Source of the DNA: a virus
Strand: one strand, 5' to 3'
Length of the DNA stretch: 33,753 nt
UHGV virus genome: UHGV-0114643
Of the stretch, positions 8,904-26,516 are shown in pieces (within the stretch, counting starts at the first letter, position 1; the number at the start of each line of letters is the position of its first letter). The notes below the pieces were generated by a model that was not told the DNA's origin, did no database searches, and saw nothing but the letters and a program-made list of their open reading frames with translations. The position numbers and the translations under genes are program-made.

Positions 8904-8929
8904 ATAAAAAAGGCTCCCGAAGGAGCCTC
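8904..8929 (-). terminator. intrinsic terminator on - strand (AGGCTCC-CGAA-GGAGCCT, then 7 U), downstream of the lysozyme gene
   Basis: Perfect 7-bp inverted repeat with 4-nt loop and A-run on + strand. Confidence 0.7.
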
Positions 8930-8937
8930 TTAATCTA

Positions 8938-9402
8938 CTATTTTGGATAAACAGCGTCAAGGTAAATCTTGGCTTCCAAACTACGTCTATTTTGTAGACC
9001 CTTGGAAGTTACTTTTTGACCATTCACTGTAATCTTGTTCCACCACTGCATAGCTTCTGCACAACCAGCTTTGTTACCAGCATTGTGACGCTTGATAAAA
9101 GTTGAATCCTGCATAGCACCGATACCAATGTTGTAAGTCTCTACAACAAGTGCGTCAAATTCGTTCTGCGTAGTCGGAACCTTAATTGCGCTGTTTACTG
9201 CACCTACATAACTTTCAACATCTGCAAGGAGATATTGAACAGCTTGTTCAGCAGTAATCTTCATCCCCATTGTTACAGGTCTTCCGTTGATACGGATTGT
9301 TCCATAACCAATTGTAGGGATTCCAGCAGAGTCTTTATAGGCTTCTAAGCGAAGCCCTTCAAAGAACTTAATGGCTTCTAAGCCTTTACTTGAGAGTTGC
9401 AT
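8938..9402 (-). CDS. GH24 (T4-type) lysozyme, ~154 aa; start moved from the track TTG (9408) to ATG 9402
   Basis: Translation contains FEGLRLEAYKDSAGIPTIGYG, matching the T4 lysozyme catalytic Glu/Asp/Thr region; AGGAGG 6 nt upstream of ATG. Confidence 0.8.
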   Translation of the reverse strand: MQLSSKGLEAIKFFEGLRLEAYKDSAGIPTIGYGTIRINGRPVTMGMKITAEQAVQYLLADVESYVGAVNSAIKVPTTQNEFDALVVETYNIGIGAMQDSTFIKRHNAGNKAGCAEAMQWWNKITVNGQKVTSKGLQNRRSLEAKIYLDAVYPK

Positions 9403-9404
9403 TA

Positions 9405-10289
9405 TCAACCTCCTACTGCGTTAATAACCACCTTGGCAGATTGGGATGTGATTGAGCCACCTACACCAGTTACAACACAAGAGTAAGTACCTTCATCATC
9501 AGCTTTAGAAGTCGGTGTCTTTTCATATGTTGCAGATGTTGCTGAAGGGATATCTACATCATCTTTCTTCCACTGATAACCAGTTGCACCAGTGGCTACG
9601 ATGCCAAGGGTGAGTGTATCTCCCTCTGTAATCTCTTGGTTAGTAGGTTGCTGTGTAATCACAGGCAGTGCATTCACAGTTACTGTGGCAGCGTTGGAAT
9701 TAACACTTGAGCCACCTTCACCAGAAACTACACAGGTGTATGCGCCAGCATCAGTAGGGACTACGCCATTCTTAGTATATGTTGCAGAGGTTGCTCCAGA
9801 GATGTTTGATGCACCTTTCTTCCACTGATAACCAGTTGCACCAGTAGCAACAACTGAAAGTGTAAGTGTTCCACCCTCGTTAACAGTTTGGTCAGTTGGC
9901 TGCTGTGTAATAACTGGAGGTGTGATTGCATCCTTCAACTTTGCATTAAGCATGGAGAAAGGTTTAACCCTTGCCAACCATTCACAATAAACTGTGTCAA
10001 CATCCTTCCCATTGATGATTGCATACTGCAAGTCCATGAAGAAGTCAGCAGTCCTCATCTGAGCACCAACTGAATATAAAAGTTCTTCACTAAATGGAAC
10101 TGTGTAGTCTGGTGTGTAATTGAAGTCAGTAACTTCTGGAATATCAGACTCAGGCCACGGTGAGCTATATGTCAGAGGCAGAACGGCCTCTTGATACTTT
10201 CTGAAGTCGTATCTTTTGCCAGCTTTAACATTCGCTACAAAGTCTTTAACGAACTCTTTAAAATCTGGATATGTCTTTGCTTTAATCAT
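9405..10289 (-). CDS. protein with N-terminal domain paralogous to the next gene plus two tandem Ig-like repeats (~85 aa each, TGATGYQWKK ... SATSATY ... CVV.G.GGS)
   Basis: Internal protein repeat and ~248-bp DNA direct repeat read from sequence; ATGA overlap with upstream gene. Confidence 0.6.
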   Translation of the reverse strand: MIKAKTYPDFKEFVKDFVANVKAGKRYDFRKYQEAVLPLTYSSPWPESDIPEVTDFNYTPDYTVPFSEELLYSVGAQMRTADFFMDLQYAIINGKDVDTVYCEWLARVKPFSMLNAKLKDAITPPVITQQPTDQTVNEGGTLTLSVVATGATGYQWKKGASNISGATSATYTKNGVVPTDAGAYTCVVSGEGGSSVNSNAATVTVNALPVITQQPTNQEITEGDTLTLGIVATGATGYQWKKDDVDIPSATSATYEKTPTSKADDEGTYSCVVTGVGGSITSQSAKVVINAVGG

Positions 10290-10654
10290 TTCTTAGCCTC
10301 TAATCTTGCATTTAGTCTAAAATAACCTTTGTGCTGCGGTGAAACATCACCTACAACAACTCCGTCAATCTTATAGCCTTTACCCATCACATATTGAATA
10401 TCCATCAAAAATGTACCAAGACCAACGATATGAAACATTGGGTAAAGAAGTTCTTCAGTATCTGGTAGAGGAATTTTAGGTGTGTATTCGGAATATGTTT
10501 CGGTAGGGTTGATATCCTTCTCAGGCCATTTGCTATCACGCCATGTTAAGGGTGTCGGAAGTACATCATCAAGATTATACCTGTCACCTTCTTGAACACT
10601 TTGGACATAAGATTGTAGGAAGCAATAAAAGTCTTTTCCACTCTTTGCCTTCAT
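10286..10654 (-). CDS. hypothetical protein, 122 aa, paralogue of the N-terminal domain of 9405..10289
   Basis: Shared motifs (MKAK, EELLY, MDIQY, LNA.L); ATG with AAGGA upstream. Confidence 0.55.
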   Translation of the reverse strand: MKAKSGKDFYCFLQSYVQSVQEGDRYNLDDVLPTPLTWRDSKWPEKDINPTETYSEYTPKIPLPDTEELLYPMFHIVGLGTFLMDIQYVMGKGYKIDGVVVGDVSPQHKGYFRLNARLEAKK

Positions 10655-10670
10655 TATCTATCCTTAACAA

Positions 10671-10690
10671 ATAAAAGGGGCTTTCGCCCC
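10671..10690 (-). terminator. intrinsic terminator on - strand (GGGGC-TTTC-GCCCC flanked by A-run on + strand)
   Basis: Perfect inverted repeat, U-run on - strand, between two - strand genes. Confidence 0.6.
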
Positions 10691-12355: not shown

Positions 12356-13771
12356 ATGAGCGAATTATTTAAACACTCGCATCTACATGCAGGTTTAACT
12401 GAAAACGGTGCTGTTAACCACACATCTTCAATGTCTGCACTGGTAGATTTCTACAAAGCTGCTGGTTCAAGCAGAACAAATGTAGAAGTTCTTCCAAACT
12501 TGTTTTACAAGGCAATGCGAGAAGATATTGATGTAGCAGTTCGAATCCTGTTACATATGCGAGATGCACGAGAAGGTATGGGTGAGCGTAAAGCGTTCCG
12601 TTATACTCTTACTAAAGCAATCTCTGACGGGATTCTTGATGAGTTTCAAGTATTACGTATCATGGACAAGATTTCTGATTTAGGTCGTTATGACGACTTT
12701 AAAATCTTTGTTGGTACACGTTACGAAACAGATGCTTTCAAGCATTTAGAATCGGCACTGTTAGACCCTGCAACATCGGCTCTGGCAGCAAAATGGTTAC
12801 CACGAGTAAAATCACGACACATGCGTTTTGTTCGTCGTTTCTGTAAGTTTGCAAATCTTTCAGAGAAGCAGTATCGAGTTCTTCTGTCAGCACTGTCTGA
12901 TACTGTTGAACAAAAGATTTCAGCAAACGAGTTTGGAGAGATTGATTACAGCAAGCTTCCTTCACTGGCTGCTGCACGTTATCAAAAACTCTTCAGTCGT
13001 AAAGATGGTGAGCGTTATGCAGCATACGTTACAGCACTGACTAAAGGTGAGACAAAGATTAATGCTGGTGCAGTCTACCCTTATGACATTACAAAGTCAG
13101 TCGGTTACGGTAATGCAACCGTTGCAAATGAGCAGTGGAAAGCTTTACCAAACTGGATGAAAGAGGGTGAAAACATTCTGTGCATGGCAGATGTATCTTC
13201 ATCTATGACTTGGGAGCGACATGGTTCTGTTACAGCGCTAGATATTGGTGTATCTTTAGCCCTGTACGTTTCAGAACGTAATACAGGTTGCTTTAAAGAT
13301 GAATTGATGGTTTACTCTAGCCGACCTCACTTCATCACATTGAGTGGTGATTTGCAGACTCGCTTACGACAAGTAAAGAGTCATGTAGAATATGGTTCAA
13401 CTGACCTACAAGCTGCTTTTGCAAGAATCCTTGAGATTGGTGTTAAAAACAACTTGACTCAGAAAGAGATGCCTAGTAAGCTTATCATCTTCTCTGATAT
13501 GCAGTTCAATCAGGTTGATGGAGCAGATGGTCGTACTAACTTTGAAGCAATTCAAGAAAAGTACAAGAAAGCTGGATATGAGATGCCACAACTGGTATTC
13601 TGGTACTTAGCAAACCGTAATGGTACTTGCGAAGTGTCTGTAAAGGATAACGGTGTAGCAATGGTATCTGGTTTCTCTCCAGCCACTTTAAAAGCTTTGC
13701 TTGGTGGTGAGAAGTTTGACCCTATCAGCGTAATGCTCAAAGCAGTAATGATTGAACGCTACGATTGGTAA
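12356..13771 (+). CDS. vWA-domain protein, 471 aa (helical N-terminal region + C-terminal von Willebrand A domain); possibly Ro60/TROVE-like or DUF2828-like
   Basis: MIDAS-like D-x-S-x-S in LCMADVSSSMTWE and beta-strand-like LIIFSDMQF seen in translation; fold family is inferred, not searched. Confidence 0.6.
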   Translation: MSELFKHSHLHAGLTENGAVNHTSSMSALVDFYKAAGSSRTNVEVLPNLFYKAMREDIDVAVRILLHMRDAREGMGERKAFRYTLTKAISDGILDEFQVLRIMDKISDLGRYDDFKIFVGTRYETDAFKHLESALLDPATSALAAKWLPRVKSRHMRFVRRFCKFANLSEKQYRVLLSALSDTVEQKISANEFGEIDYSKLPSLAAARYQKLFSRKDGERYAAYVTALTKGETKINAGAVYPYDITKSVGYGNATVANEQWKALPNWMKEGENILCMADVSSSMTWERHGSVTALDIGVSLALYVSERNTGCFKDELMVYSSRPHFITLSGDLQTRLRQVKSHVEYGSTDLQAAFARILEIGVKNNLTQKEMPSKLIIFSDMQFNQVDGADGRTNFEAIQEKYKKAGYEMPQLVFWYLANRNGTCEVSVKDNGVAMVSGFSPATLKALLGGEKFDPISVMLKAVMIERYDW

Positions 13772-13936: not shown

Positions 13937-14016
13937 CTCCGTTTAGCTCAGTTTGGTTTAGCAGCACTTGCTTTGGGAGCAAGGGGTCGAGGGTTCAAAT
14001 CCTTCAACGGAGACCA
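13937..14016 (+). tRNA. tRNA-Pro (anticodon TGG), CCA encoded
   Basis: 7-bp acceptor stem CTCCGTT/AACGGAG, T-arm GAGGG-TTCAAAT-CCTTC, anticodon loop TTTGGGA. Confidence 0.8.
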
Positions 14017-14022
14017 AATTAT

Positions 14023-14100
14023 ATTCCCGTAGACAAATTAGGTAAAGTCAACACCCTTTCAAGGTGTGGTTTGAGGGTTCAAGTCCCTTCGGGAATGCCA
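14023..14100 (+). tRNA. tRNA-Glu (anticodon TTC), CCA encoded
   Basis: Perfect acceptor stem ATTCCCG/CGGGAAT, T-arm, anticodon loop CTTTCAA. Confidence 0.85.
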
Positions 14101-14107
14101 GTTTTGA

Positions 14108-14177
14108 CAGAAGACCAATTACAGCAAACAAACTTTTCAATTTCGCGCATAGAAATCCAAAAAAGATTTGGTCTGGT
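14108..14177 (+). repeat. inter-tRNA element a (CAGAAGACC ... GGTCTGGT family); candidate small structured RNA
   Basis: Shares 5' (CAGAAGACC-N-ACAGCAA) and 3' (GGTCTGGT) ends with three other spacers; terminal 5-bp helix AGACC/GGTCT. Confidence 0.6.
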
Positions 14178-14187
14178 CATTAAGAAT

Positions 14188-14264
14188 TGCGGGTATAGAG
14201 AAAGGGTGTCTCACATGTCTCATTAGCATGTTATCGGTAGGTTCGACTCCTACACCCGCCTCCA
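14188..14264 (+). tRNA. tRNA with CAT anticodon (Met, fMet or Ile2), atypical (U1:C72 mismatch, U at position 37)
   Basis: Acceptor TGCGGGT/ACCCGCC, T-arm GTAGG-TTCGACT-CCTAC, anticodon arm CATGT-CTCATTA-GCATG, CCA encoded. Confidence 0.55.
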
Positions 14265-14270
14265 AATTTA

Positions 14271-14336
14271 CAGAAGACCGTTTACAGCAAACACTTAAAA
14301 TTTTTTATAGGAAAAAATGAAAAGATACGGTCTGGT
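14271..14336 (+). repeat. inter-tRNA element b (CAGAAGACC ... GGTCTGGT family)
   Basis: Direct repeat of the element termini. Confidence 0.6.
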
Positions 14337-14347
14337 AATACTAATAT

Positions 14348-14424
14348 GGTTAGGAAGCACATAAGGCATGTGCGGTCGGCTGTTAACCGAATGGTACAGG
14401 GTTCGAATCCCTGACTAACCGCCA
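14348..14424 (+). tRNA. tRNA-Asn (anticodon GTT)
   Basis: Acceptor GGTTAGG/ACTAACC, D-stem GCAC/GTGC, anticodon loop CTGTTAA, T-arm CAGGG-TTCGAAT-CCCTG, CCA encoded. Confidence 0.8.
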
Positions 14425-14493
14425 AGATTTGGGAGAGAAGTGATTGCTCACCGATTTGTAAGGTGCAAGTCCTTAGCCTGAATAGAATAAAAT

Positions 14494-14581
14494 GCGTCGT
14501 TATCCCGTAGATGGAAGCGGTGGTGACTGTAAATCACTTGTCATTATGACTCGGTAGGTTCGACTCCTTCACGGCGCACCA
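14494..14581 (+). tRNA. tRNA-Tyr (anticodon GTA), long variable arm
   Basis: Acceptor GCGTCGT/ACGGCGC, anticodon arm GGTGA-CTGTAAA-TCACT, variable-arm hairpin, T-arm, CCA encoded. Confidence 0.8.
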
Positions 14582-14587
14582 AATAAA

Positions 14588-14664
14588 GGTTATGTAGTTT
14601 AACTGGTCAAAATACCTCCCTGTCACGGAGGATGATGAGGGTTCGAATCCCTTCGTAACCGCCA
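14588..14664 (+). tRNA. tRNA-Asp (anticodon GTC)
   Basis: Acceptor GGTTATG/CGTAACC, D-stem GTTT/AAAT, anticodon arm CCTCC-CTGTCAC-GGAGG, T-arm GAGGG-TTCGAAT-CCCTT, CCA encoded. Confidence 0.85.
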
Positions 14665-14725
14665 AATTTGAGAGGGCTTGTTAGCCCCTCCCTTAAAGAG
14701 TTCTTACGAGTATTCTTTAAAGGAG

Positions 14726-14800
14726 CAGAAGACCAAATACAGCAAGCAATTTTAATATTTCAAGCCAATTTAATTTGAAAAATTTAAAACTTGGTCTGGT
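14726..14800 (+). repeat. inter-tRNA element c (CAGAAGACC ... GGTCTGGT family)
   Basis: Direct repeat of the element termini. Confidence 0.6.
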
Positions 14801-14813
14801 TCCAACAATTTTA

Positions 14814-14940
14814 CAGAAGACCGTTTACAGCAAACAATAAACAATCTATTTCTCTGGTAAAGAAAAGGCGAAGGTTCGATTCCTTCACACGTTACGGCGT
14901 GTTGGTGTAATGGAAGCACTTAAGATAAATACGGTCTGGT
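14814..14940 (+). repeat. inter-tRNA element d (127 nt) with internal T-arm mimic (GAAGG-TTCGATT-CCTTC) and D-arm-like hairpin; candidate Y-RNA-like ncRNA
   Basis: Same termini as a-c; tRNA-like motifs present but no acceptor stem pairing, so not a tRNA. Confidence 0.5.
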
Positions 14941-15089
14941 AATCCTCTTTGCAGTGACTTATGGAGCTAATATGTCGTCCCATGAGTGCCGATGAGTTTC
15001 TTGAGCATGATTCTAGATTAGCTTACTAAGAGACAACTCTACAAACCCTTTAGCAAGGTTTGCGTAGGTTACTGCAAAGATGATTTAAT

Positions 15090-15165
15090 GGAAGTGTAGC
15101 AGAATGGTGATGCGGCAGACTTTTAATCTGACAGGCGACGGGTTCGAATCCCTCCACTTCTACCA
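15090..15165 (+). tRNA. tRNA-Lys (anticodon TTT)
   Basis: Acceptor GGAAGTG/CACTTCT, anticodon loop CTTTTAA, T-loop GGGTTCGAATCCC, CCA encoded. Confidence 0.8.
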
Positions 15166-15246
15166 AATTCGCCCCTTAACTGAAGAACACATGCGCGGCT
15201 GGAAACACCCACTCAATCAGTTCTCTACAAAGGGGCAACTTATAAT

Positions 15247-15323
15247 GGTTCAGTCGCAGATAAGGTAATGCAAGGGTTTCATAAGCCCTATGAATGTGGG
15301 TTCGATTCCCACCTGAACCTCCA
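15247..15323 (+). tRNA. tRNA-Met (anticodon CAT; could be initiator or Ile2)
   Basis: Perfect acceptor GGTTCAG/CTGAACC, anticodon arm AGGGT-TTCATAA-GCCCT, T-arm GTGGG-TTCGATT-CCCAC, CCA encoded. Confidence 0.8.
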
Positions 15324-15325
15324 AT

Positions 15326-15400
15326 TGTGGGTTAGCATAAATGGTAATGCAAACGGCTGATAACCGTTAGAAGAGGGTTCGATACCCTCACCTACAACCA
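15326..15400 (+). tRNA. tRNA-Ile (anticodon GAT)
   Basis: Acceptor TGTGGGT/ACCTACA, D-stem GCAT/ATGC, anticodon arm AACGG-CTGATAA-CCGTT, T-arm GAGGG-TTCGATA-CCCTC, CCA encoded. Confidence 0.85.
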
Positions 15401-15414
15401 ATTTCATAAAGTTG

Positions 15415-15443
15415 TTGACATTCAGATGTGACCACTTTAAGAT
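15415..15443 (+). promoter_or_regulatory. internal promoter-like element (TTGACA-N17-TAAGAT) inside the tRNA array
   Basis: Exact -35, 17-nt spacer, 4/6 at -10. Confidence 0.35.
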
Positions 15444-15676
15444 AACCTTAGTTTTCGTTAGCGTAGCGTCTATTTTAAAAACTTAAAAATAAATGCAAAC
15501 GATAATGTTTTTCTGGCAGTAGCTTAATAGGCTAAACACCAGCAGGGTATTCCAACTCCCTGTTAAAGAATTTGGCGTACTAGCCCACGGTATGATTAAT
15601 AAAGTGGGCAATATTCTAAAGAGCATCCCTTAAGGGGCTTGGCTTAAATGCAATGAGTGCTCTTTAAAATATTAAT

Positions 15677-15752
15677 GCTCCGTTAGTCTAAAGGATAGGC
15701 AACTGTCTTCTAAACAGTTCATATATAGGTTCGAGTCCTATACGGAGTGCCA
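15677..15752 (+). tRNA. tRNA-Arg (anticodon TCT)
   Basis: Acceptor GCTCCGT/ACGGAGT, D-stem GTCT/AGGC, anticodon arm ACTGT-CTTCTAA-ACAGT, T-arm ATAGG-TTCGAGT-CCTAT, CCA encoded. Confidence 0.85.
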
Positions 15753-15813
15753 ATTCTAATGGTCAAGACAACACGAGTAAGTTATCTTAGATACGCGTTA
15801 AGAGATAAACGAA

Positions 15814-15881
15814 AGTCGGAAAGTTGCTGAAGGGTAGCTCCCTTCGATAGTAAGTAGGTTCGACTCCTACCTTGACTGCCA
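15814..15881 (+). tRNA. tRNA-like element, probably degenerate or interrupted (canonical T-arm and 3' end with CCA, but no D-arm; a perfect 5' acceptor partner GGTCAAG lies at 15761-15767)
   Basis: T-arm GTAGG-TTCGACT-CCTAC and 3' strand CTTGACT-G-CCA; only 65 nt from the nearest 5' partner, 118 nt from the perfect one. Confidence 0.3.
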
Positions 15882-16046
15882 AATAGTTAGCAGATTACTA
15901 CGACGACCTTTATGGGTCTCCGCATTGACTTGAAAGAGTCAATCTCATAAGGAGGTGGTCTGTATCTCATGTTTTCCAGAACATGTAAATAATCTGAGAA
16001 GAAGCTTGACAGTGTTGAGATAACAGGGTAAGCTTCGAAATATAGT

Positions 16047-16129
16047 ATGGGACGATGTTAAGACACTAAGGCATGTGCGTAAGCCTCCAAAACTTACTCA
16101 AAGGGGTTCGAATCCTCCGTCCCATGCCA
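16047..16129 (+). tRNA. atypical tRNA, candidate tRNA-Trp (CCA inside a 9-nt anticodon loop CCUCCAAAA; D region ~7 nt too long)
   Basis: Perfect acceptor ATGGGAC/GTCCCAT, T-loop GGGGTTCGAATCC, CCA encoded; Trp is the only amino acid otherwise missing from the array. Confidence 0.45.
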
Positions 16130-16142
16130 AAGTCTTATTAGG

Positions 16143-16230
16143 GGTAGGTAGCGGCTAATGGAAGCCAAACTGTCTTGAAAACAGTTGCCATTGTAGAGAT
16201 ACGGTGAGGGTTCGACTCCTTTATCTACCG
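16143..16230 (+). tRNA. tRNA-Ser (anticodon TGA), long variable arm; 3' CCA not encoded (CCT follows)
   Basis: Acceptor GGTAGGT/ATCTACC, anticodon arm ACTGT-CTTGAAA-ACAGT, 20-nt variable arm, T-arm GAGGG-TTCGACT-CCTTT. Confidence 0.75.
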
Positions 16231-16485
16231 CCTAATAAGATTTAAAGCTGAGACTCGCTGTTCGGGCAAGTGTTTCAGGTTTCCTCTTCGTGTATTGGCG
16301 TACACGGCACTGGTAAAACACCTAGTAGGTGTCACGGAGAAGAGATAGTATCAAGCTCTCCAAAGGTTCTAGTCACCGGATTAAACAAGACTATGCAAAG
16401 GCCAATAGGTCTTTTTAGAGAATTGTTAAGATGTTTAATACCATTGTTGCTTTGGTGTCTTAGCAGTTCTCTACAAAGATTTAAT

Positions 16486-16562
16486 GCACCTATAGCCCAA
16501 CTGGAAGAGGCAGCAGACTTAGAATCTGCTCAGTGTGAGTTCGAATCTCTCTAGGTGTACCA
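16486..16562 (+). tRNA. tRNA with Leu anticodon TAG, class-II-like D-arm but short variable loop
   Basis: Acceptor GCACCTA/TAGGTGT, anticodon arm GCAGA-CTTAGAA-TCTGC, discriminator A, CCA encoded. Confidence 0.7.
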
Positions 16563-16569
16563 AATTAAT

Positions 16570-16645
16570 GCAGGTGTAGCAAAATGGTTATGCGGCTGAC
16601 TCTTAATCAGTAAGACGATGGGTTCAATTCCCTCCACCTGTACCA
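16570..16645 (+). tRNA. tRNA-Lys (anticodon CTT)
   Basis: Acceptor GCAGGTG/CACCTGT, anticodon loop CTCTTAA, T-loop GGGTTCAATTCCC, CCA encoded. Confidence 0.8.
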
Positions 16646-16651
16646 AACAAT

Positions 16652-16727
16652 GGGGATGTAGTTTACATGGTTAAAACATAAGTTTTGCAAACTTAAGTAC
16701 AGGGTTCAATTCCCTGCTTCTCCACCA
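16652..16727 (+). tRNA. tRNA-Ala (anticodon TGC) with G3:U70 identity pair
   Basis: Acceptor GGGGATG/CTTCTCC, D-stem GTTT/AAAC, anticodon arm TAAGT-TTTGCAA-ACTTA, T-arm CAGGG-TTCAATT-CCCTG, CCA encoded. Confidence 0.85.
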
Positions 16728-16733
16728 ATTAGT

Positions 16734-16808
16734 GCATCCATAGTTTAAACGGGAAAATTACAGTCTTCCAAACTGAGGTTGAGGGTTCGATTCCCTCTGG
16801 ATGCTCCA
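16734..16808 (+). tRNA. tRNA-Gly (anticodon TCC)
   Basis: Perfect acceptor GCATCCA/TGGATGC, anticodon loop CTTCCAA, T-arm GAGGG-TTCGATT-CCCTC, CCA encoded. Confidence 0.85.
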
Positions 16809-16814
16809 AATAAT

Positions 16815-16890
16815 GCTCTTATCGTATAATTGGCTATTACGGTTGCCTTGTAAGCAACTTATCAGGGTTCGAATCCTTGTGGGAGCACCA
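16815..16890 (+). tRNA. tRNA-Thr (anticodon TGT)
   Basis: Acceptor GCTCTTA/TGGGAGC, anticodon arm GTTGC-CTTGTAA-GCAAC, T-arm CAGGG-TTCGAAT-CCTTG, CCA encoded. Confidence 0.85.
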
Positions 16891-16987
16891 ATTTTGAGGT
16901 CAAGTGAAAGACCGCTTGAGTCAACTGAAGACCGTAACAAATTCCACGGAGTTGAGTTAGCGGCACAGCTTCAGACCTCTTTTCAAA

Positions 16988-17062
16988 GCTCGCTTAGTTT
17001 ATATGGTAAAGCCCCATCCTTACAAGTTGGTGAAGAAGGTTCAAGTCCTTCAGCGAGTACCA
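16988..17062 (+). tRNA. tRNA-Val (anticodon TAC)
   Basis: Acceptor GCTCGCT/AGCGAGT, D-stem GTTT/AAGC, anticodon loop CTTACAA, T-arm GAAGG-TTCAAGT-CCTTC, CCA encoded. Confidence 0.75.
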
Positions 17063-17063
17063 A

Positions 17064-17141
17064 GTTCCAGTATCCCAATTGGCAGAGGATGCAAGCTCAA
17101 ACCTTGTATTAGTGACGGTTCGAATCCGTCTTGGAACACCA
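17064..17141 (+). tRNA. tRNA with Leu anticodon CAA, class-II-like D-arm (3-bp stem, CAATTGGCAGA loop) but short variable loop
   Basis: Acceptor GTTCCAG/TTGGAAC, anticodon arm GCAAG-CTCAAAC-CTTGT, T-arm GACGG-TTCGAAT-CCGTC, discriminator A, CCA encoded. Confidence 0.7.
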
Positions 17142-17156
17142 AATTAGGAGATTCCT

Positions 17157-17369
17157 ATGAAGCCTTATGGTAGACATGGTAAAGTTGAAATTGCAAGTTG
17201 TGGTTGCTGTGCTTCTCACGATGGTGAAGAAGATTACTACAAGTGGCGTACAGACCATCGTAAACGCTTTCTCAGAAGAGATAAGAAGAAAGCTAGACAG
17301 GAATCTCGAAAGAATATTGCAGAATTAGTTCAAATGGATAGAACAGCAATCTACGAAGTTGTTTGTTAG
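17157..17369 (+). CDS. small basic Cys-containing hypothetical protein, 70 aa; last ~17 codons overlap tRNA-Arg
   Basis: ATG with AGGAGA 7 nt upstream; ORF in track; overlap makes the true extent uncertain. Confidence 0.35.
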   Translation: MKPYGRHGKVEIASCGCCASHDGEEDYYKWRTDHRKRFLRRDKKKARQESRKNIAELVQMDRTAIYEVVC

Positions 17370-17395
17370 GGGTTCGAATCCCTTATTCTGCACCA
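17319..17395 (+). tRNA. tRNA-Arg (anticodon ACG)
   Basis: Perfect acceptor GCAGAAT/ATTCTGC, D-stem GTTC/GAAC, anticodon arm GCAAT-CTACGAA-GTTGT, T-arm AGGGG-TTCGAAT-CCCTT, CCA encoded. Confidence 0.8.
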
Positions 17396-17413
17396 ATTTT
17401 AGAAGGTAATTAT

Positions 17414-17641
17414 ATGCGTAAACTCATTATTGAAAGGCATAAAGATGCTGACAAGATTGAAACAACACAAGTTGGGGACACTGACTTCATTCTTGTAGGT
17501 TGGAAATGTGACCCAATAGCAGCTATGAAGGTTGTTCATGGTTTTGCAGGAATTGAATTTAATCAAATCATATTTGAAACGCTATTACCAGAAAATCAGG
17601 ATACGTGTAATAACGCATATGTCCTGACAAGAGTTCGTTAG
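17414..17641 (+). CDS. hypothetical protein, 75 aa (paralogue A: MRKLIIERH ... DTCNNAYVLTRVR); start moved to the ATG with a proper RBS
   Basis: About 60% identical to 17686..17913; AGAAGG upstream of ATG. Confidence 0.5.
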   Translation: MRKLIIERHKDADKIETTQVGDTDFILVGWKCDPIAAMKVVHGFAGIEFNQIIFETLLPENQDTCNNAYVLTRVR

Positions 17642-17667
17642 GGGTTCGAATCCCTTATTCTGCACCA
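17633..17667 (+). pseudogene. tRNA 3' fragment (T-arm + acceptor 3' strand + CCA), identical to the 3' end of tRNA-Arg(ACG); duplication scar
   Basis: 30 of 31 nt identical to 17365-17395; no complementary 5' acceptor strand or D-arm upstream. Confidence 0.55.
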
Positions 17668-17685
17668 AATTTAAAAGGGTAACTT

Positions 17686-17913
17686 ATGTTTAAACTCATA
17701 GTTGAAAAACACCCAGAAGATGACAAGCTTGAAACAGGGAGATTTGGAGATACTTTCTTTATCAGAGTTGGCTGGAAAGCTGACCCATTAGAAGTTAGAA
17801 AGATTGTCTACAACTTTGCTGGTTTGGAATTAAAGCAAGTCATCTTTGAAACAATGTTGCCAGAAAATAAAGATACATGCAATAACGCATATATTCTTAC
17901 AAGAGTTAGTTAG
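17686..17913 (+). CDS. hypothetical protein, 75 aa (paralogue B: MFKLIVEKH ... DTCNNAYILTRVS)
   Basis: ORF in track; AAGGG upstream; paralogous to 17414..17641. Confidence 0.5.
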   Translation: MFKLIVEKHPEDDKLETGRFGDTFFIRVGWKADPLEVRKIVYNFAGLELKQVIFETMLPENKDTCNNAYILTRVS

Positions 17914-17987
17914 GGGATTAGTTTACAAGGTTAAAACCTCGGTCTTTGAAATCGAAGAAGTTGGTTCAATTCCAACATCCCCCGCCA
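17912..17987 (+). tRNA. tRNA-Gln (anticodon TTG); starts inside the stop codon of the preceding ORF
   Basis: Acceptor AGGGGAT/ATCCCCC (A1:C72), D-stem GTTT/AAAC, anticodon arm TCGGT-CTTTGAA-ATCGA, T-arm GTTGG-TTCAATT-CCAAC, CCA encoded. Confidence 0.8.
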
Positions 17988-17989
17988 AT

Positions 17990-18068
17990 GCTCCATTACT
18001 CCAATTGGCAGAGAGGCCAGACTTAAAATCTGTGTTATGTATCGGTTCGAATCCGATATGGAGTACCA
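17990..18068 (+). tRNA. tRNA with Leu anticodon TAA, class-II-like D-arm but short variable loop
   Basis: Perfect acceptor GCTCCAT/ATGGAGT, D-arm CTC-CAATTGGCA-GAG, anticodon arm CCAGA-CTTAAAA-TCTGT, T-arm ATCGG-TTCGAAT-CCGAT, discriminator A, CCA encoded. Confidence 0.7.
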
Positions 18069-18074
18069 AATATT

Positions 18075-18150
18075 AGCAGTGTAGCATAACTGGCAATGCT
18101 CCAGCCTCTGAAGCTGAATGATTAAGGTTCAAATCCTTACGCTGCTGCCA
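18075..18150 (+). tRNA. tRNA-Gln (anticodon CTG)
   Basis: Acceptor AGCAGTG/CGCTGCT, D-stem GCAT/ATGC, anticodon loop CTCTGAA, T-arm TAAGG-TTCAAAT-CCTTA, CCA encoded. Confidence 0.8.
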
Positions 18151-18181
18151 CTTCTAAGGGTTCTTACGAGAGTCCTTAAAT

Positions 18182-18255
18182 GTGGCCTTATCATAAATGG
18201 ACAATGACCCATGCTGTGAACATGGTCTATACGGGTTCGATTCCCGTAGGTCACC
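18182..18255 (+). tRNA. tRNA-His (anticodon GTG); 3' tail reads C-CCCCA rather than N-CCA and no obvious G-1
   Basis: Acceptor GTGGCCT/AGGTCAC, perfect D-stem TCAT/ATGA, anticodon arm CCATG-CTGTGAA-CATGG, T-arm ACGGG-TTCGATT-CCCGT. Confidence 0.7.
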
Positions 18256-18267
18256 CCCCAATTCAAT

Positions 18268-18343
18268 AGCTCAATTAGCTTATATGGTTAAAGCGCGTGT
18301 CTGAAAAACATGAGAACAGGGTTCAAATCCCGATGGGCTACCA
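18268..18343 (+). tRNA. tRNA-Phe (anticodon GAA), acceptor/T-stem register ambiguous
   Basis: D-stem GCTT/AAGC, anticodon arm CGTGT-CTGAAAA-ACATG, T-loop GGGTTCAAATCCC, 3' ...ACCA. Confidence 0.6.
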
Positions 18344-18359
18344 ATTTTATAGGTGCATA

Positions 18360-19094
18360 ATGAAAGAGATGACAGAACAAGGTAAAGAGATTTTTGGTCT
18401 CCTTAAATCTGGTAACGGGTTCTCTAACCCTCTTATTACTGGTGCAGCAGTTCTTGGTGGTACTGTAGCTGCCTCTCAATCATTAGTTAACTCAATTAGT
18501 TCTGTAACAGACCCAGCTACACAACAGATTTTAGTTGCTGCTGGACTGACAACAGCCTTATTAGGAAGCTTCACAACAAGCCTTGGAAGGACAACTTCAA
18601 CGACAAGTACACTCACTGAGTATGGACAAAAGTCTGTAGATGAGTTTTCACAACGTATGCAAGTAGCTAAGGGTTACTCTAATGTTATGGGAGCAGCAGG
18701 TGAACAGGTTGGATGTACACCGTTTAGTGGTATCATGGGCGTAGCTACCGAGTACGGTAATAAAGCGATGGATTTGATTAATACCTCCATAGACGCTGTA
18801 AATAGCGTTCTAAGCGATTTGCAAGATGCAATCGACCAAGGACTAGATACAATCTCTGAACTCGCTACACAGGCCGTTACAGCGATTAATGAGGGTATTG
18901 CAAAGATTACTGCATATGCTAATGAAGTAACTCAGATGATTGCAGATGAAGCAGCACTGATTGCAGAATACCTGAAAACAAATATTAATGGTTTCCTTGC
19001 GAATGTTCTACCAAGCTGGTTTGATGATTCATGTAAAACTGGTGTGATTGACACTATCGCAACTCCAGAGATGAAAGAAGCTCTGAACAAATAA
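18360..19094 (+). CDS. hypothetical protein (~244 aa), Ala/Thr/Ser/Gly-rich with hydrophobic N-terminal segment; start moved downstream of the tRNA
   Basis: Track ORF began inside tRNA-Phe; ATG at 18360 has AGGTG upstream. Confidence 0.5.
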   Translation: MKEMTEQGKEIFGLLKSGNGFSNPLITGAAVLGGTVAASQSLVNSISSVTDPATQQILVAAGLTTALLGSFTTSLGRTTSTTSTLTEYGQKSVDEFSQRMQVAKGYSNVMGAAGEQVGCTPFSGIMGVATEYGNKAMDLINTSIDAVNSVLSDLQDAIDQGLDTISELATQAVTAINEGIAKITAYANEVTQMIADEAALIAEYLKTNINGFLANVLPSWFDDSCKTGVIDTIATPEMKEALNK

Positions 19095-19095
19095 C

Positions 19096-19188
19096 GGAAG
19101 ATTAACCCTAAAAGGTAAGGGAGCAGTTTGCTAAACTGCCAGTAACCGAGAAATCGGCGTACCAGTTCAAGTCTGGTATCTTCCTCCA
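19096..19188 (+). tRNA. tRNA-Ser (anticodon GCT), long variable arm
   Basis: Perfect acceptor GGAAGAT/ATCTTCC, 3-bp D-stem, anticodon arm GCAGT-TTGCTAA-ACTGC, T-arm ACCAG-TTCAAGT-CTGGT, CCA encoded. Confidence 0.8.
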
Positions 19189-19194
19189 AATTAT

Positions 19195-19270
19195 GTGTCG
19201 GTGTCAGAAATGGTTATGTCCCTGTCTGCAAAACAGGTTTATGAGGGTTCGAGTCCCTTCCGATACTCCA
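19195..19270 (+). tRNA. tRNA-Cys (anticodon GCA)
   Basis: Acceptor GTGTCGG/CCGATAC, anticodon arm CCTGT-CTGCAAA-ACAGG, T-arm GAGGG-TTCGAGT-CCCTT, CCA encoded. Confidence 0.8.
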
Positions 19271-25003: not shown

Positions 25004-25381
25004 ATGGCATATCAAGGTTTTACTAAATTAGGTGAAAGAGAACCTCTTAACGATATTATCCTTTGGGAAGAAATTACCCCAACTGGTCACTCTCGTAAAG
25101 AGTACGCTCCAGTAGCAAGCACAGAATACCGTGTTGGTGAAGTTCTGAAGGCTGACGGCTCTAAAGTAGCTGCTGGTCAAGAAGCTCAGGCAGATTCTGT
25201 ATGTATCGTTAACTTCTATGCAGACCTGCAACTGTCTTATCATGGTCAGTTAAAAGTCGTTGGTATCTACCGTGACGCTGAACTGAAAGACTTGCTGAAG
25301 CTAGAGAGTGGCGTTGATGCTGCTGCTGTCAAGTCTGCTCTTAAGGCGAAAGGTATTGATTTCGTCCCAACTGGCCTGTAA
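25004..25381 (+). CDS. head decoration-like protein (125 aa)
   Basis: Size and position between protease/scaffold and major capsid gene, as in lambda D. Confidence 0.45.
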   Translation: MAYQGFTKLGEREPLNDIILWEEITPTGHSRKEYAPVASTEYRVGEVLKADGSKVAAGQEAQADSVCIVNFYADLQLSYHGQLKVVGIYRDAELKDLLKLESGVDAAAVKSALKAKGIDFVPTGL

Positions 25382-25412: not shown

Positions 25413-26516
25413 ATGTTGACTAATTCTGAAAAAAGCAGATTTTTCCTTGCTGACTTAACTGGTGAAGTCCAGTCTATTCCAAATACTTACGGATATATCT
25501 CTGGTCTGGGACTGTTCCGTTCTGCTCCACAAACACAGACTACTTTCCTGATGGACTTGACTGATTGGGATATCAGCTTACTGGATGCGGTAGACCGTAC
25601 CAGCCGTAAAGCTGAGACTAGCGCTCCTGAGCGTGTTCGTCAGATTAGCTTCCCGATGATGTACTTCAAGGAAGTTGAAAGCATCACTCCTGATGAGATT
25701 CAGGGTGTTCGTCAGCCAGGCACTGCAAATGAACTGACTACTGAAGCAGTTGTACGTGCTAAGAAGCTGATGAAGATTCGTACCAAGTTTGATATTACTC
25801 GTGAGTTCTTGTTTATGCAAGCTCTGAAGGGTAAAGTTATCGACGCTAACGGTGTTCTGTACGCAGACCTGTACAAGCAGTTCGATGTAACTAAGAAGAC
25901 TATCTACTTCGACTTGGACAACCCGAACTCTGATATCGATGCGCACATTGAAGACCTGCGTATGCACATGGAAGATGAAGCTAAGACAGGTACTGTAATC
26001 AACGGTGAAGAAATTCACATCGTTGTTGACAGAACTTTCTTCAGCAAGCTTATCAAGCATCCTAAGATTCGTGACGCATACCTTGCACAGCAGACTCCGC
26101 TGGCTTGGCAACAGATTACTGGTTCTCTGAGAACTGGTGGTACTGATGGTGTTCAGGCTCACATGAACCGCTTCTACTACGGTGGTGTTGTATTCGTACA
26201 GTACAACGGTAAGTTCAAAGATAAGCGTGGTAAGACTCATACTCTGGTTAGCATTGACGGTGTATCTGATACTAATGTTGGTGTAGGTCACGCATTCCCT
26301 AACGTAGCAATGTTGGGTGAAGCTAACAACATCTTCGAAGTTGCTTACGCTCCATGTCCTAAGATGGGTTATGCAAACACTCTGGGTCAGGAACTGTATG
26401 TGTTCGAATATGAGAAAGACCGTGACGAAGGTATTGACTTCGAAGCCCACTCTTACATGCTGCCATACTGCACACGTCCTCAACTGCTTGTTGACGTTCG
26501 TTCAGACGCTGAGTAA
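25413..26516 (+). CDS. major capsid protein (367 aa), lambda gpE-like by context
   Basis: Position after protease and decoration genes; size; strong codon bias shown by a long antisense ORF. Confidence 0.65.
   Translation: MLTNSEKSRFFLADLTGEVQSIPNTYGYISGLGLFRSAPQTQTTFLMDLTDWDISLLDAVDRTSRKAETSAPERVRQISFPMMYFKEVESITPDEIQGVRQPGTANELTTEAVVRAKKLMKIRTKFDITREFLFMQALKGKVIDANGVLYADLYKQFDVTKKTIYFDLDNPNSDIDAHIEDLRMHMEDEAKTGTVINGEEIHIVVDRTFFSKLIKHPKIRDAYLAQQTPLAWQQITGSLRTGGTDGVQAHMNRFYYGGVVFVQYNGKFKDKRGKTHTLVSIDGVSDTNVGVGHAFPNVAMLGEANNIFEVAYAPCPKMGYANTLGQELYVFEYEKDRDEGIDFEAHSYMLPYCTRPQLLVDVRSDAE

What the first reader, a model, noticed from the sequence alone, without database searches (positions are those of the whole stretch)
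9405..10654. Tandem paralogues next to the lysozyme gene, one with duplicated Ig-like domains
Genes 10286-10654 and 9405-10289 share an ~120-aa N-terminal domain. The second adds two ~85-aa tandem repeats (TGATGYQWKK ... SATSATY.K ... CVV.G.GGS), visible as a ~248-bp DNA direct repeat, consistent with bacterial Ig-like domains. Sitting immediately upstream of the GH24 lysozyme, they could be cell-surface-binding or lysis-accessory proteins.
Basis: partly seen in the sequence, partly recalled or inferred. Interest (0 to 1): 0.45.

Follow-up and report, generated by a model that had tools for sequence, protein, structure and literature searches.

The report
Capsid decoration protein and stub paralogue
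The Ig-domain gene is the already-solved Hoc-like protein that plugs into capsid hexamers of Felix O1-type phages (not a tail or lysis protein), and the small gene in front of it is a conserved, apparently undescribed copy of only its capsid-binding domain.

Summary
The window is a Mooglevirus (Felix O1-like myophage, 99% identical to Shigella phages Sf13/ESh19). Gene 9405-10289(-) is the orthologue of Sf14 gp20 and Bas63 Hex-Dec. Both are solved by cryo-EM (PDB 9C2D/9C3A, 9NCF) as monomers seated in the centre of the 60 edge hexamers of the T=9 capsid.

It has an N-terminal ~120-aa capsid-binding domain (CapBD, 98% identical to Sf14 gp20). The anchoring residues Arg79 and Arg107 are kept, and the capsid protein in the window keeps Asp221. 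Two I-set Ig-like domains follow. Relatives carry one to four, and the Sf14 paper already notes two for Sf13. "Tail protein" is a legacy misannotation, and a lysis role is unsupported.

Gene 10286-10654(-) is a whole CapBD with no Ig domains (37% identity, E 6e-17). It overlaps the next gene by ATGA and is transcribed late with it in Felix O1. It is under purifying selection (dN/dS about 0.16) and present in 233 of 253 relatives. It is absent from published virion proteomes and cryo-EM maps, lacks Arg79, and is pseudogenised in one lineage. I found no paper describing it, and its role is inferred only.

Overall the finding is ordinary and largely already known.

The parts
10677..10690 (-). Terminator-like hairpin (GGGGCGAAAGCCCC followed by a T-run). 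It lies between the upstream 196-aa gene and the small paralogue and marks the 5' boundary of the three-gene unit.
   Evidence: scan; sequence. The same hairpin is conserved in VpaE1, mio and Z31 and is listed as a terminator in Felix O1 Table 2.
10661..10665 (-). Shine-Dalgarno-like AAGGA, 6 nt upstream of the small paralogue's ATG (10654).
   Evidence: Read directly from the sequence.
10286..10654 (-). CapBD-only paralogue, 122 aa and 14.1 kDa (PHROG 4463, 'unknown function'). It is the orthologue of Sf14 FDI99_gp021, Felix O1 ORF37 and VpaE1 ORF40.
   Evidence: The AF2 model's only significant PDB fold matches are 9c2d_S and 9ncf_S (TM 0.66-0.67). dN/dS is about 0.16.
10286..10289 (-). ATGA overlap: the stop codon of the small paralogue overlaps the start codon of Hex-Dec, which suggests translational coupling.
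   Evidence: The same tight junction occurs in Sf14, VpaE1, Felix O1 and the distant metagenomic contig L009.
9405..10289 (-). Hex-Dec / gp20-type Hoc-like capsid hexamer decoration protein, 294 aa and 31.4 kDa (PHROG 3995).
   Evidence: 9c2d_S 4e-173, 9ncf_S 4e-248.
9921..10289 (-). Capsid-binding domain (CapBD), residues 1-123. It carries Arg79 and Arg107.
   Evidence: 98% identical to Sf14 gp20 residues 1-123. The Arg79/Arg107 to capsid-protein Asp221 salt bridges are described in PMC11821841. Both Arg residues were checked.
9669..9920 (-). Ig-like domain 1 (I-set type), residues 124-207.
9408..9668 (-). Ig-like domain 2 (I-set type), residues 208-294. It is the direct-repeat partner of domain 1.
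9409..9414 (-). AGGAGG Shine-Dalgarno sequence for the endolysin, embedded in the last codons of Hex-Dec.
   Evidence: Read directly from the sequence.
8938..9402 (-). GH24 endolysin (154 aa from the ATG at 9402), the third gene of the unit.
   Evidence: PF00959, 1.5e-38; PHROG 7; Sf13 annotation.
8908..8931 (-). Strong terminator-like hairpin (10-bp stem followed by a T-run) closing the unit.
25413..26516 (+). Major capsid protein (367 aa), the docking partner. Asp221, the residue that Sf14 gp20 Arg79/Arg107 bind, is present.
   Evidence: The partner role comes from PMC11821841.

Best explanation
**The unit.** The locus is a late-expressed three-gene unit: CapBD-only paralogue, then Hex-Dec, then endolysin. 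It sits between two terminator-like hairpins in a Felix O1-like (Mooglevirus) myophage.

**The 294-aa protein.** It is this phage's Hoc-like head decoration protein.
- One monomer inserts its N-terminal ~120-aa capsid-binding domain into the central depression of each of the 60 edge (pentamer-proximal) hexamers of the T=9 capsid.
- It is held partly by Arg79 and Arg107 salt bridges to Asp221 of the major capsid protein.
- Two flexible I-set Ig-like domains project outward.
- These steps are shown experimentally for the orthologues Sf14 gp20 and Bas63 Hex-Dec. They are inferred here from 98% (Sf14) and 86% (a Bas63-like four-Ig homologue) CapBD identity and from conservation of all three contact residues.
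- The outward Ig string most likely mediates weak adhesion to host-associated surfaces or glycans, or particle-to-particle contacts, as proposed for T4 Hoc. This is inference.
- The protein is probably dispensable. Relatives carry broken copies, and Ig copy number drifts from 1 to 4, probably by recombination between the ~252-nt repeats.

**The 122-aa protein.** It is an old tandem duplicate that kept the whole CapBD fold and never carries Ig domains.
- It is made late together with Hex-Dec and is kept by purifying selection.
- It has lost the Arg79 anchor and has not been seen in mature virions.
- My committed reading, at about 0.35 probability and inferred only: it is an assembly-phase accessory. 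It uses the CapBD fold to engage capsid hexamers or Hex-Dec itself, tunes where or when Hex-Dec is loaded, and is not retained in the finished particle.
For: **Identity of the Ig-bearing protein.**
- phmmer against PDB sequences gives 9c2d_S (Sf14 capsid) at 4e-173 and 9ncf_S (Bas63 capsid) at 4e-248.
- PHROG 3995 matches end to end at 3e-166.
- The CapBD is 98% identical to Sf14 gp20.
- Arg79, Arg107 and capsid-protein Asp221 are all present, matching the contacts in PMC11821841.
- Orthologues were detected in virions: Sf14 gp20 and Felix O1 gp36, 31.6 kDa, 44% coverage.
- Location on edge hexamers only is reported for both Sf14 and Bas63.

**Ig folds.**

**Ig copy number.** Relatives are 210, 294, 377 or 460 aa, corresponding to 1-4 Ig domains. 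PMC11821841 states that Sf13 and Sf17 have two.

**The paralogue.**
- 37% identity to the CapBD, E 6e-17.
- 9c2d_S is hit at 1.7e-12 by sequence and at TM 0.66 by fold, with no other significant PDB fold match.
- Felix O1 ORF36 and ORF37 are both maximally transcribed at 60 min.
- The genes overlap by ATGA.
- dN/dS is about 0.16, against 0.03-0.04 for the Hex-Dec CapBD.
- 233 of 253 related phage records hold an intact-looking copy.
- The same order (small gene, Hex-Dec, lysozyme) occurs in a distant 87-kb metagenomic contig, where the small protein is only 48% identical.

**Absence of the paralogue from virions.**
- It is not among the 17 Felix O1 virion proteins.
- VpaE1 ORF40 remains 'hypothetical', whereas an unnamed ORF near the capsid gene (ORF55) is labelled 'structural protein' after the virion mass spectrometry.
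- The Bas63 map shows no density on the other hexamers.
Against: - Nothing was measured on this phage itself. Capsid location and contacts are transferred from orthologues.
- AlphaFold2 models the CapBD poorly: pLDDT 30-54 in Hex-Dec and a mean of 62.6 for the paralogue. Structural statements about that domain therefore rest on the published cryo-EM models and on sequence.
- The adhesion role of the Ig domains is untested in any Ounavirinae phage.
- For the paralogue, absence from virions is negative evidence only.
  - The Felix O1 list used a 25% coverage cut-off that excluded known structural proteins.
  - The VpaE1 proteome table is an image I could not read.
- Icosahedral averaging would smear a monomer sitting on a strict 3-fold axis.
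- Arg107 is not consistently lost: its equivalent is Arg in P0002 and P0097.
- No direct evidence links the paralogue to either capsid hexamers or Hex-Dec.
Confidence: 0.85

Rival explanations
1. The small paralogue is itself a structural, Ig-less capsid cap. It would either occupy the 20 face-centre (true 3-fold) hexamers that Hex-Dec avoids, or compete with Hex-Dec for edge hexamers and so set how many Ig fibres are displayed.
For: - It retains the complete CapBD fold.
- It is expressed late with Hex-Dec.
- The segment that is the capsid-contact region in Hex-Dec (around Arg79) is equally invariant in the paralogue but with different residues: VGLG.FLMD.QY is conserved even in the 48%-identical P0097. 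This suggests a specific but different docking surface.
- PMC11821841 attributes Hex-Dec's exclusion from true 3-fold hexamers to Asp221 side chains shifted away from Arg79/Arg107. A copy lacking Arg79 would not need them.
- A monomer on a strict 3-fold axis would be blurred by icosahedral averaging.
Against: - It is not in the Felix O1 virion protein list, although a 9.7-kDa protein was detected there.
- It is apparently not among the 22 VpaE1 virion proteins.
- No density was reported on the other hexamers in Bas63. The Sf14 paper reports gp20 only on the pentamer-proximal hexamers and mentions no further hexamer-centre protein, and Sf14 encodes a 99%-identical copy.
- It is dispensable in the mio/Z31 lineage.
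Confidence: 0.2
2. The small paralogue is a functionless, decaying leftover of a tandem duplication.
For: - One lineage of at least 20 phage records carries it as a pseudogene, with the start codon lost and a ~218-nt internal deletion. Those phages are viable isolates.
- Erwinia Kolesnikviruses have the Hex-Dec and lysin genes without it.
- It evolves about four times faster than the Hex-Dec CapBD.
Against: - An intact ORF at 73-100% identity is present in 233 of 253 records across two genera.
- dN/dS is about 0.16 even though synonymous sites are saturated.
- The ribosome-binding site and ATGA coupling are conserved.
- It is intact and syntenic in a lineage where it is only 48% identical.
- It is transcribed in Felix O1.
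Confidence: 0.07
3. The genes encode tail proteins, as most GenBank, RefSeq and UniRef records say.
For: - The product is named 'tail protein', 'putative tail protein' or 'tail fiber protein' in many records.
- PHROG 3995 is labelled 'tail protein', and PHROG major-tail-protein families are hit.
Against: - The tail-family hits cover only the Ig region, residues ~96-212.
- The label traces back to the original Felix O1 annotation 'HK97 major tail subunit', which would rest on the Ig-like region, the only part with tail-family similarity.
- The cryo-EM models place the orthologues on capsid hexamers.
- The gene lies more than 10 kb from the tail module.
Confidence: 0.02
4. One or both proteins are lysis accessories (holin, antiholin, spanin or an endolysin partner), because they are co-transcribed with the GH24 endolysin and Felix O1-like phages lack an adjacent holin.
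For: - The genes share a unit bounded by terminator-like hairpins, and the endolysin's ribosome-binding site lies inside the end of the Hex-Dec gene.
- Absence of a holin-lysin cassette is noted for Felix O1 and UAB_Phi87.
Against: - Neither protein has a transmembrane-grade hydrophobic segment: the maximum Kyte-Doolittle 19-residue mean is 1.22 and 1.15, against a threshold of about 1.6.
- Hex-Dec orthologues are virion proteins.
- There are no Pfam or PHROG lysis hits for either protein.
Confidence: 0.03

Closest known systems
Shigella phage Sf14 gp20, Hoc-like decoration protein (PDB 9C2D/9C3A chain S; PMC11821841)
   Same: - Same genus and same gene position: small paralogue, then gp20, then endolysin.
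- The CapBD is 98% identical, with Arg79 and Arg107 conserved and capsid-protein Asp221 conserved.
- The domain order is the same: N-terminal CapBD followed by C-terminal I-set Ig domains.
   Different: - There are two Ig domains here, against three in Sf14.
- The Ig domains are only 52-69% identical to Sf14's. Ig1 is closer to the Felixounavirus Ig1 (77-81%), and Ig2 is 90% identical to the single Ig of phage Henu11. The C-terminal part is therefore mosaic.
Escherichia phage Bas63 (JohannRWettstein) Hex-Dec (PDB 9NCF chain S; PMC12609058)
   Same: - Same family and architecture.
- It binds only hexamers at facet edges.
- The gene lies more than 10 kb outside the structural module.
- The CapBD has two pseudo-C2 lobes.
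   Different: - Bas63 has four Ig domains (460 aa).
- A 460-aa four-Ig homologue (P0106) has a CapBD about 86% identical to the window's.
- It belongs to a different genus (Felixounavirus).
[quoted passage not shown]
   Same: - It works alike: a non-essential monomer at hexamer centres that displays a string of Ig-like domains.
- Roles in adhesion, aggregation or environment sensing have been proposed (as summarised).
   Different: [quoted passage not shown]
- The CapBD is larger, topologically distinct and without sequence similarity.
- No Hoc chain is hit by the CapBD-only protein in the PDB sequence search.
- The PHROG 'Hoc-like' hits cover only the Ig region.
- Binding is selective for the 60 edge hexamers of the T=9 capsid.
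T5 pb10 decoration protein
   Same: [quoted passage not shown]
- Chain 5lxk_A, deposited as 'Decoration protein', matches residues 133-207 at 3.5e-9. That it is T5 pb10 is from my memory, not checked here.
   Different: - It has one Ig domain.
- Its capsid-binding domain shows no detectable similarity to this CapBD.
PHROG 4463 (unknown function): the family of the 122-aa paralogue
   Same: The match is full length, 9.4e-78. Members are restricted to Felixounavirus, Mooglevirus and close relatives.
   Different: - The family has no assigned function.
- Its relationship to the Hex-Dec CapBD is not mentioned in either cryo-EM paper, and none of the six gene or family identifiers I searched for brought up a paper discussing it.

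Membership tests
Ounavirinae Hex-Dec / Sf14 gp20 hexamer decoration protein (PHROG 3995): gene 9405-10289 | N-terminal ~120-aa capsid-binding domain homologous to the modelled chain S of 9C2D/9NCF | tested here: met
   (4e-173 and 4e-248, aligned from residue 1). 98% identity to Sf14 residues 1-123.
Ounavirinae Hex-Dec / Sf14 gp20 hexamer decoration protein (PHROG 3995): gene 9405-10289 | C-terminal string of Ig-like (I-set) domains | tested here: met
   Pfam Ig_3, Ig_2 and I-set above their cut-offs. AF2 pLDDT 92-96. Foldseek matches to tandem Ig modules at 1e-12 to 1e-15.
Ounavirinae Hex-Dec / Sf14 gp20 hexamer decoration protein (PHROG 3995): gene 9405-10289 | Capsid-anchoring Arg79 and Arg107, with Asp221 on the major capsid protein | tested here: met
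   All three residues are present in the window. The contacts are as described in PMC11821841.
Ounavirinae Hex-Dec / Sf14 gp20 hexamer decoration protein (PHROG 3995): gene 9405-10289 | Gene lies outside the structural module, directly upstream of the endolysin | tested here: met
   The Bas63 paper notes the gene is more than 10 kb from the structural module.
Ounavirinae Hex-Dec / Sf14 gp20 hexamer decoration protein (PHROG 3995): gene 9405-10289 | Physically bound as a monomer at the centre of edge hexamers of the T=9 capsid | not testable with these tools
   Shown for the orthologues only. It needs cryo-EM or mass spectrometry of this phage.
Ounavirinae Hex-Dec family: gene 10286-10654 (small paralogue) | CapBD fold | tested here: met
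   (TM 0.66-0.67 to 9c2d_S and 9ncf_S). The model confidence is modest (pLDDT 62.6).
Ounavirinae Hex-Dec family: gene 10286-10654 (small paralogue) | Ig-like display domains | tested here: not met
   The protein is 122 aa and ends with the CapBD, with no Pfam hit. All 51 homologues are 88-124 aa.
Ounavirinae Hex-Dec family: gene 10286-10654 (small paralogue) | Anchoring Arg79 / Arg107 | tested here: not met
   Arg79 aligns to a Gly that is invariant in every small paralogue, including P0097. Arg107 aligns to Gln, His or Arg.
Ounavirinae Hex-Dec family: gene 10286-10654 (small paralogue) | Presence in the virion | not testable with these tools
   The literature is negative: it is absent from the Felix O1 list, VpaE1 ORF40 is not relabelled as structural, and there is no extra hexamer density. 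All of this is negative evidence.
T4 Hoc family | N-terminal Ig-like domains with a C-terminal capsid-binding domain homologous to Hoc's | tested here: not met
   The domain order is reversed. The CapBD-only protein hits no Hoc chain in the PDB sequence search. The PHROG Hoc-like hits are confined to residues 119-288. The topology is reported as distinct.
Phage major tail / tail tube protein (the database label) | Tail-tube domain | tested here: not met
   PHROG tail-family hits cover only the Ig region, residues ~96-212. The N-terminal domain matches only capsid-bound chains.
Lysis accessory (holin / antiholin / spanin) | Transmembrane segment(s) or a lipoprotein signal | tested here: not met
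   The maximum Kyte-Doolittle 19-residue hydropathy is 1.22 and 1.15. There are no lysis-family hits.

The most novel reading that the evidence does not exclude
The CapBD-only paralogue is an unrecognised third component of the Ounavirinae capsid-decoration system.

It could act in either of two ways:
- as an Ig-less cap for the 20 face-centre hexamers that Hex-Dec cannot bind, made invisible so far by icosahedral averaging and proteome cut-offs;
- as a late-expressed competitor or chaperone that sets which hexamers receive the Ig-bearing protein.

Either way it would be a natural example of a decoration protein duplicated and stripped to its anchor in order to control display.
Probability: 0.2. 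Interest if true: 0.5.

Novelty: already known. Interest (0 to 1): 0.22.

Why it matters
**Practical value.**
- It corrects a widespread "tail protein" label to "capsid hexamer decoration protein" for this gene family across hundreds of Felix O1-like genomes.
- It flags a Hoc-like display scaffold in phages that are used for Salmonella, E. coli and Shigella biocontrol and typing.

**The open point.** The only open biological point is the conserved anchor-only paralogue. If it controls which hexamers are decorated, it would help explain two things:
- why Hex-Dec occupies only the 60 edge hexamers of a T=9 shell;
- how phages tune surface display.

That question is modest in scope and directly testable with data that already exist: the Sf14 and Bas63 maps and the Sf14 virion mass-spectrometry dataset.

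Tried and rejected
**1. Other copies in the window.** I searched for further CapBD or Ig copies and found none. The "second place" that BLAST reports in each related genome is just the internal Ig repeat matching itself.

**2. Distant relatives of the CapBD.** An exhaustive HMMER profile search of 1.84 billion representatives found only 13 proteins. In them the CapBD is fused to I-set Ig, to a Big_2-type Ig domain (UniProt's label for the Erwinia phage orthologue), or to a Lys-rich tail. Foldseek against PDB and BFVD gave no significant fold match outside this family. No functional clue came from outside the family.

**3. Dating the duplication.** In a neighbour-joining tree the small-paralogue clade is monophyletic (200/200 bootstraps), but its position relative to the Hex-Dec CapBDs is unresolved (15/200). 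I cannot say whether the duplication precedes the split from the Erwinia phages.

**4. Virion proteomics for the paralogue.**
- The Sf14 supplement holds no mass-spectrometry table.
- VpaE1 Table S2 is an image.
- The 2018 Sf14 paper is not held.
- Only the Felix O1 list was readable.

**5. Programmed -1 frameshift.** I considered a frameshift fusing the two genes. Felixounaviruses end the small gene with GCT AAA AAG AAA TGA, which resembles a slippery run. The window has GCT AAG AAA TGA, with no slippery heptamer. The feature is not conserved, so I rejected it.

**6. AlphaFold2 of the CapBD.** Confidence was low for both proteins, consistent with the Sf14 authors' remark that the prediction does not match their density. 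I did not use these models for interface analysis.

**7. Sigma-70 promoter scan.** The scan found no more sites than shuffled sequence (16 against 15.2). The promoter driving the unit is unidentified.
Full report
**What the window is.** A 2.4-kb stretch around the finding is 99% identical to Shigella phages ESh19 and Sf13 and to Citrobacter phage KMM4. It is 72-90% identical to about 230 Felix O1-like phages. Sf13 is classified as Ounavirinae, genus Mooglevirus. The window also carries a 25-gene tRNA array. The head and tail module lies on the plus strand from about 19.7 kb.

- The minus strand carries ORFs 10286-10654 (122 aa) and 9405-10289 (294 aa), which overlap by ATGA.
- Their N-terminal ~120 residues are 37% identical (E 6e-17). 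The window holds no third copy.
- The longer protein ends in two repeats of 84 and 87 aa, 59-60% identical to each other. At DNA level they form a 252-255-nt direct repeat at 71-77% identity.
- The repeats are Ig-like by three tests:
  - Pfam Ig_3, Ig_2 and I-set score above their cut-offs.
  - AlphaFold2 gives pLDDT 92-96.
  - Foldseek matches tandem Ig modules of Robo, MuSK and titin.
- The next gene downstream is a GH24 endolysin.

**Identity of the 294-aa protein.**
- A sequence search of the PDB finds chain S of 9C2D/9C3A (Sf14 capsid, 4e-173) and chain S of 9NCF (Bas63 capsid, 4e-248).
- The two papers describe this protein, called gp20 or "Hex-Dec", as a Hoc-like decoration protein (PMC11821841, PMC12609058).
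  - A flexible, unresolved string of Ig-like domains projects outward.
- In Sf14 the anchor includes Arg79 and Arg107 bound to Asp221 of three capsid-protein subunits. All three residues are present in this window. The CapBD is 98% identical to that of Sf14.
- Orthologues were found in purified virions of Sf14 and of Felix O1 (gp36, 44% coverage).
- The Sf14 paper states that Sf13 and Sf17 have two Ig-like domains. This exact variant is therefore already on record.
- Relatives are 210, 294, 377 or 460 aa long, which corresponds to 1-4 Ig domains.
- Here the Ig part is mosaic.
  - Ig1 resembles the Felixounavirus Ig1 (77-81%) more than any Sf14 Ig domain (62-69%).
  - Ig2 is 90% identical to the single Ig domain of phage Henu11.

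**Why the databases say "tail protein".** The original Felix O1 record called the gene "HK97 major tail subunit". PHROG tail-family hits cover only the Ig region. The label is a legacy of Ig-domain similarity and is contradicted by the capsid structures.

**Gene organisation.**
- A terminator-like hairpin (10690-10677) follows the upstream 196-aa gene.
- Next come a ribosome-binding site and the small gene, then the ATGA overlap into Hex-Dec.
- An AGGAGG inside the last Hex-Dec codons serves the endolysin ATG at 9402.
- A strong hairpin at 8931-8908 closes the unit.
- In Felix O1, RT-PCR showed ORF36 (Hex-Dec) and ORF37 (the small gene) both peaking late, at 60 min, together with the portal and tail genes.
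- Neither protein has a membrane-spanning segment. Adjacency to the endolysin gives no support for a lysis role.

**The 122-aa paralogue.**
- It belongs to PHROG 4463, "unknown function". It corresponds to Sf14 FDI99_gp021, Felix O1 ORF37 and VpaE1 ORF40.
- It spans the entire CapBD and nothing else.
  - It hits 9c2d_S at 1.7e-12 by sequence.
  - Its AF2 model (pLDDT 62.6) matches only 9c2d_S and 9ncf_S in the PDB (TM 0.66-0.67).
  - It matches only Ounavirinae proteins in BFVD.
- The fold family is tiny: 13 representatives among 1.84 billion proteins.
- The gene is real and maintained.
  - 233 of 253 phage records hold a copy at 73-100% identity.
  - dN/dS against Felixounavirus copies is about 0.16, compared with 0.03-0.04 for the Hex-Dec CapBD and 0.08 for the lysozyme. 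Synonymous sites are saturated, so these ratios are approximate.
  - A distant 87-kb metagenomic phage contig keeps the same order (195-aa gene, small paralogue, Hex-Dec, lysozyme), although its small protein is only 48% identical.
- It is nevertheless dispensable.
  - Phages mio and Z31 carry it as a pseudogene with identical deletion boundaries, and at least four more records share the same 3' boundary.
  - Erwinia Kolesnikviruses have Hex-Dec (with a Big_2-type Ig domain) next to the lysin and no small gene.
- It differs from Hex-Dec at the capsid contacts.
  - Arg79 aligns to a Gly within a VGLG.FLMD.QY block that is invariant across all small paralogues.
  - Arg107 aligns to Gln, His or Arg.
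- It has not been seen in particles.
  - It is absent from the 17 Felix O1 virion proteins.
  - It is left as "hypothetical" in VpaE1, where an unnamed ORF next to the capsid gene is labelled "structural protein" after virion mass spectrometry.
  - No density is reported on the remaining hexamers.
- Neither cryo-EM paper mentions it. Searches on its locus tags and PHROG number found only a gene table.

**Mechanism.**
- For Hex-Dec the mechanism is transferred from close orthologues with high confidence. The CapBD plugs into edge hexamers, and the Ig domains are displayed for adhesion or aggregation, in the manner of T4 Hoc.
- It works like Hoc but is not a Hoc family member. The domain order is reversed and the anchor domain is unrelated.
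- For the small paralogue I commit, at roughly one chance in three, to an assembly-phase accessory. It would engage capsid hexamers or Hex-Dec through the CapBD fold and would not be retained in the virion.
Negative proteomics and averaged maps do not exclude it.
- A dead duplicate is unlikely, given the selection and synteny data.

**Verdict.**
- The main feature is already known and structurally solved in near-identical phages.
- The only apparently undescribed element is the conserved anchor-only paralogue. It is a small, testable loose end rather than a surprise.

Noticed in passing
window 13937-19270 (+): There is an array of 25 tRNA genes by ARAGORN. The Sf13 annotation also lists a tRNA-Tyr (GTA) between the Asn and Asp genes (about window 14494-14581) that ARAGORN did not call.
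   Followed up: no
window 12356-13771 (+): A 471-aa protein sits directly upstream of the tRNA array. Relatives annotate it variously as DUF2828 (PF11443), 'vWFA protein' or 'RNA-binding protein'. Its position next to 25 tRNA genes may be meaningful.
   Followed up: no
window 9921-10289 and 10286-10654 (-): There is a faint internal repeat inside the CapBD. hhalign aligns the first helix (residues 8-27) with the central helix (residues ~78-97) at P = 0.003 and probability 10%. This agrees with the pseudo-C2 two-lobe architecture reported for Bas63 Hex-Dec, but the sequence signal is weak.
   Followed up: partly
window 9408-9920 (-), compared with L002 (Sf14), L003, L007 and P0052: The Ig region is mosaic relative to the CapBD. 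The CapBD is 98% Sf14-like. Ig1 is closest to the Felixounavirus Ig1 (77-81%), and Ig2 is 90% identical to the single Ig domain of phage Henu11. This implies recombination at the CapBD-Ig junction and between Ig repeats.
   Followed up: partly
L004 2306-2498 (phage mio); L005 2305-2498 (phage Z31): Both carry a remnant of the small paralogue with a lost start codon and an identical ~218-nt internal deletion. In Z31 the Hex-Dec gene itself is also split into two ORFs. The whole decoration module can therefore decay in viable isolates.
   Followed up: yes
L003 1805-1830 and L004 2480-2500 (Felixounavirus junction), compared with window 10286-10300: Felixounaviruses end the small gene with GCT AAA AAG AAA TGA, an A-rich and slippery-looking run just before the ATGA overlap. 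The window has GCT AAG AAA TGA. I considered a possible -1 frameshift fusion and set it aside because the feature is not conserved.
   Followed up: partly
GenBank protein ACZ55588.1 attributed to 'Staphylococcus phage SA1': A protein attributed to a Staphylococcus phage is 99% identical to the VpaE1 small paralogue, and one 'Staphylococcus' record appears among the Felix O1-like hits. That record apparently contains Felix O1-like sequence, so it may be mislabelled or contaminated.
   Followed up: no
proteins P0141 and P0204, compared with L003 939-1823: Phages named VpaE1_ev035 and VpaE1_ev78 carry 377-378-aa (three-Ig) Hex-Dec proteins, whereas the original VpaE1 has 294 aa (two Ig domains). 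Ig copy number may therefore have changed, or the gene may have been exchanged, between closely named isolates.
   Followed up: no
window 25004-25381 (+): A 125-aa ORF lies just upstream of the major capsid gene. By position and size it corresponds to the beta-tulip decoration protein (Sf14 gp33, Bas63 Dec, VpaE1 ORF55 'structural protein'), the second decoration protein of these capsids. I did not verify this by search.
   Followed up: no
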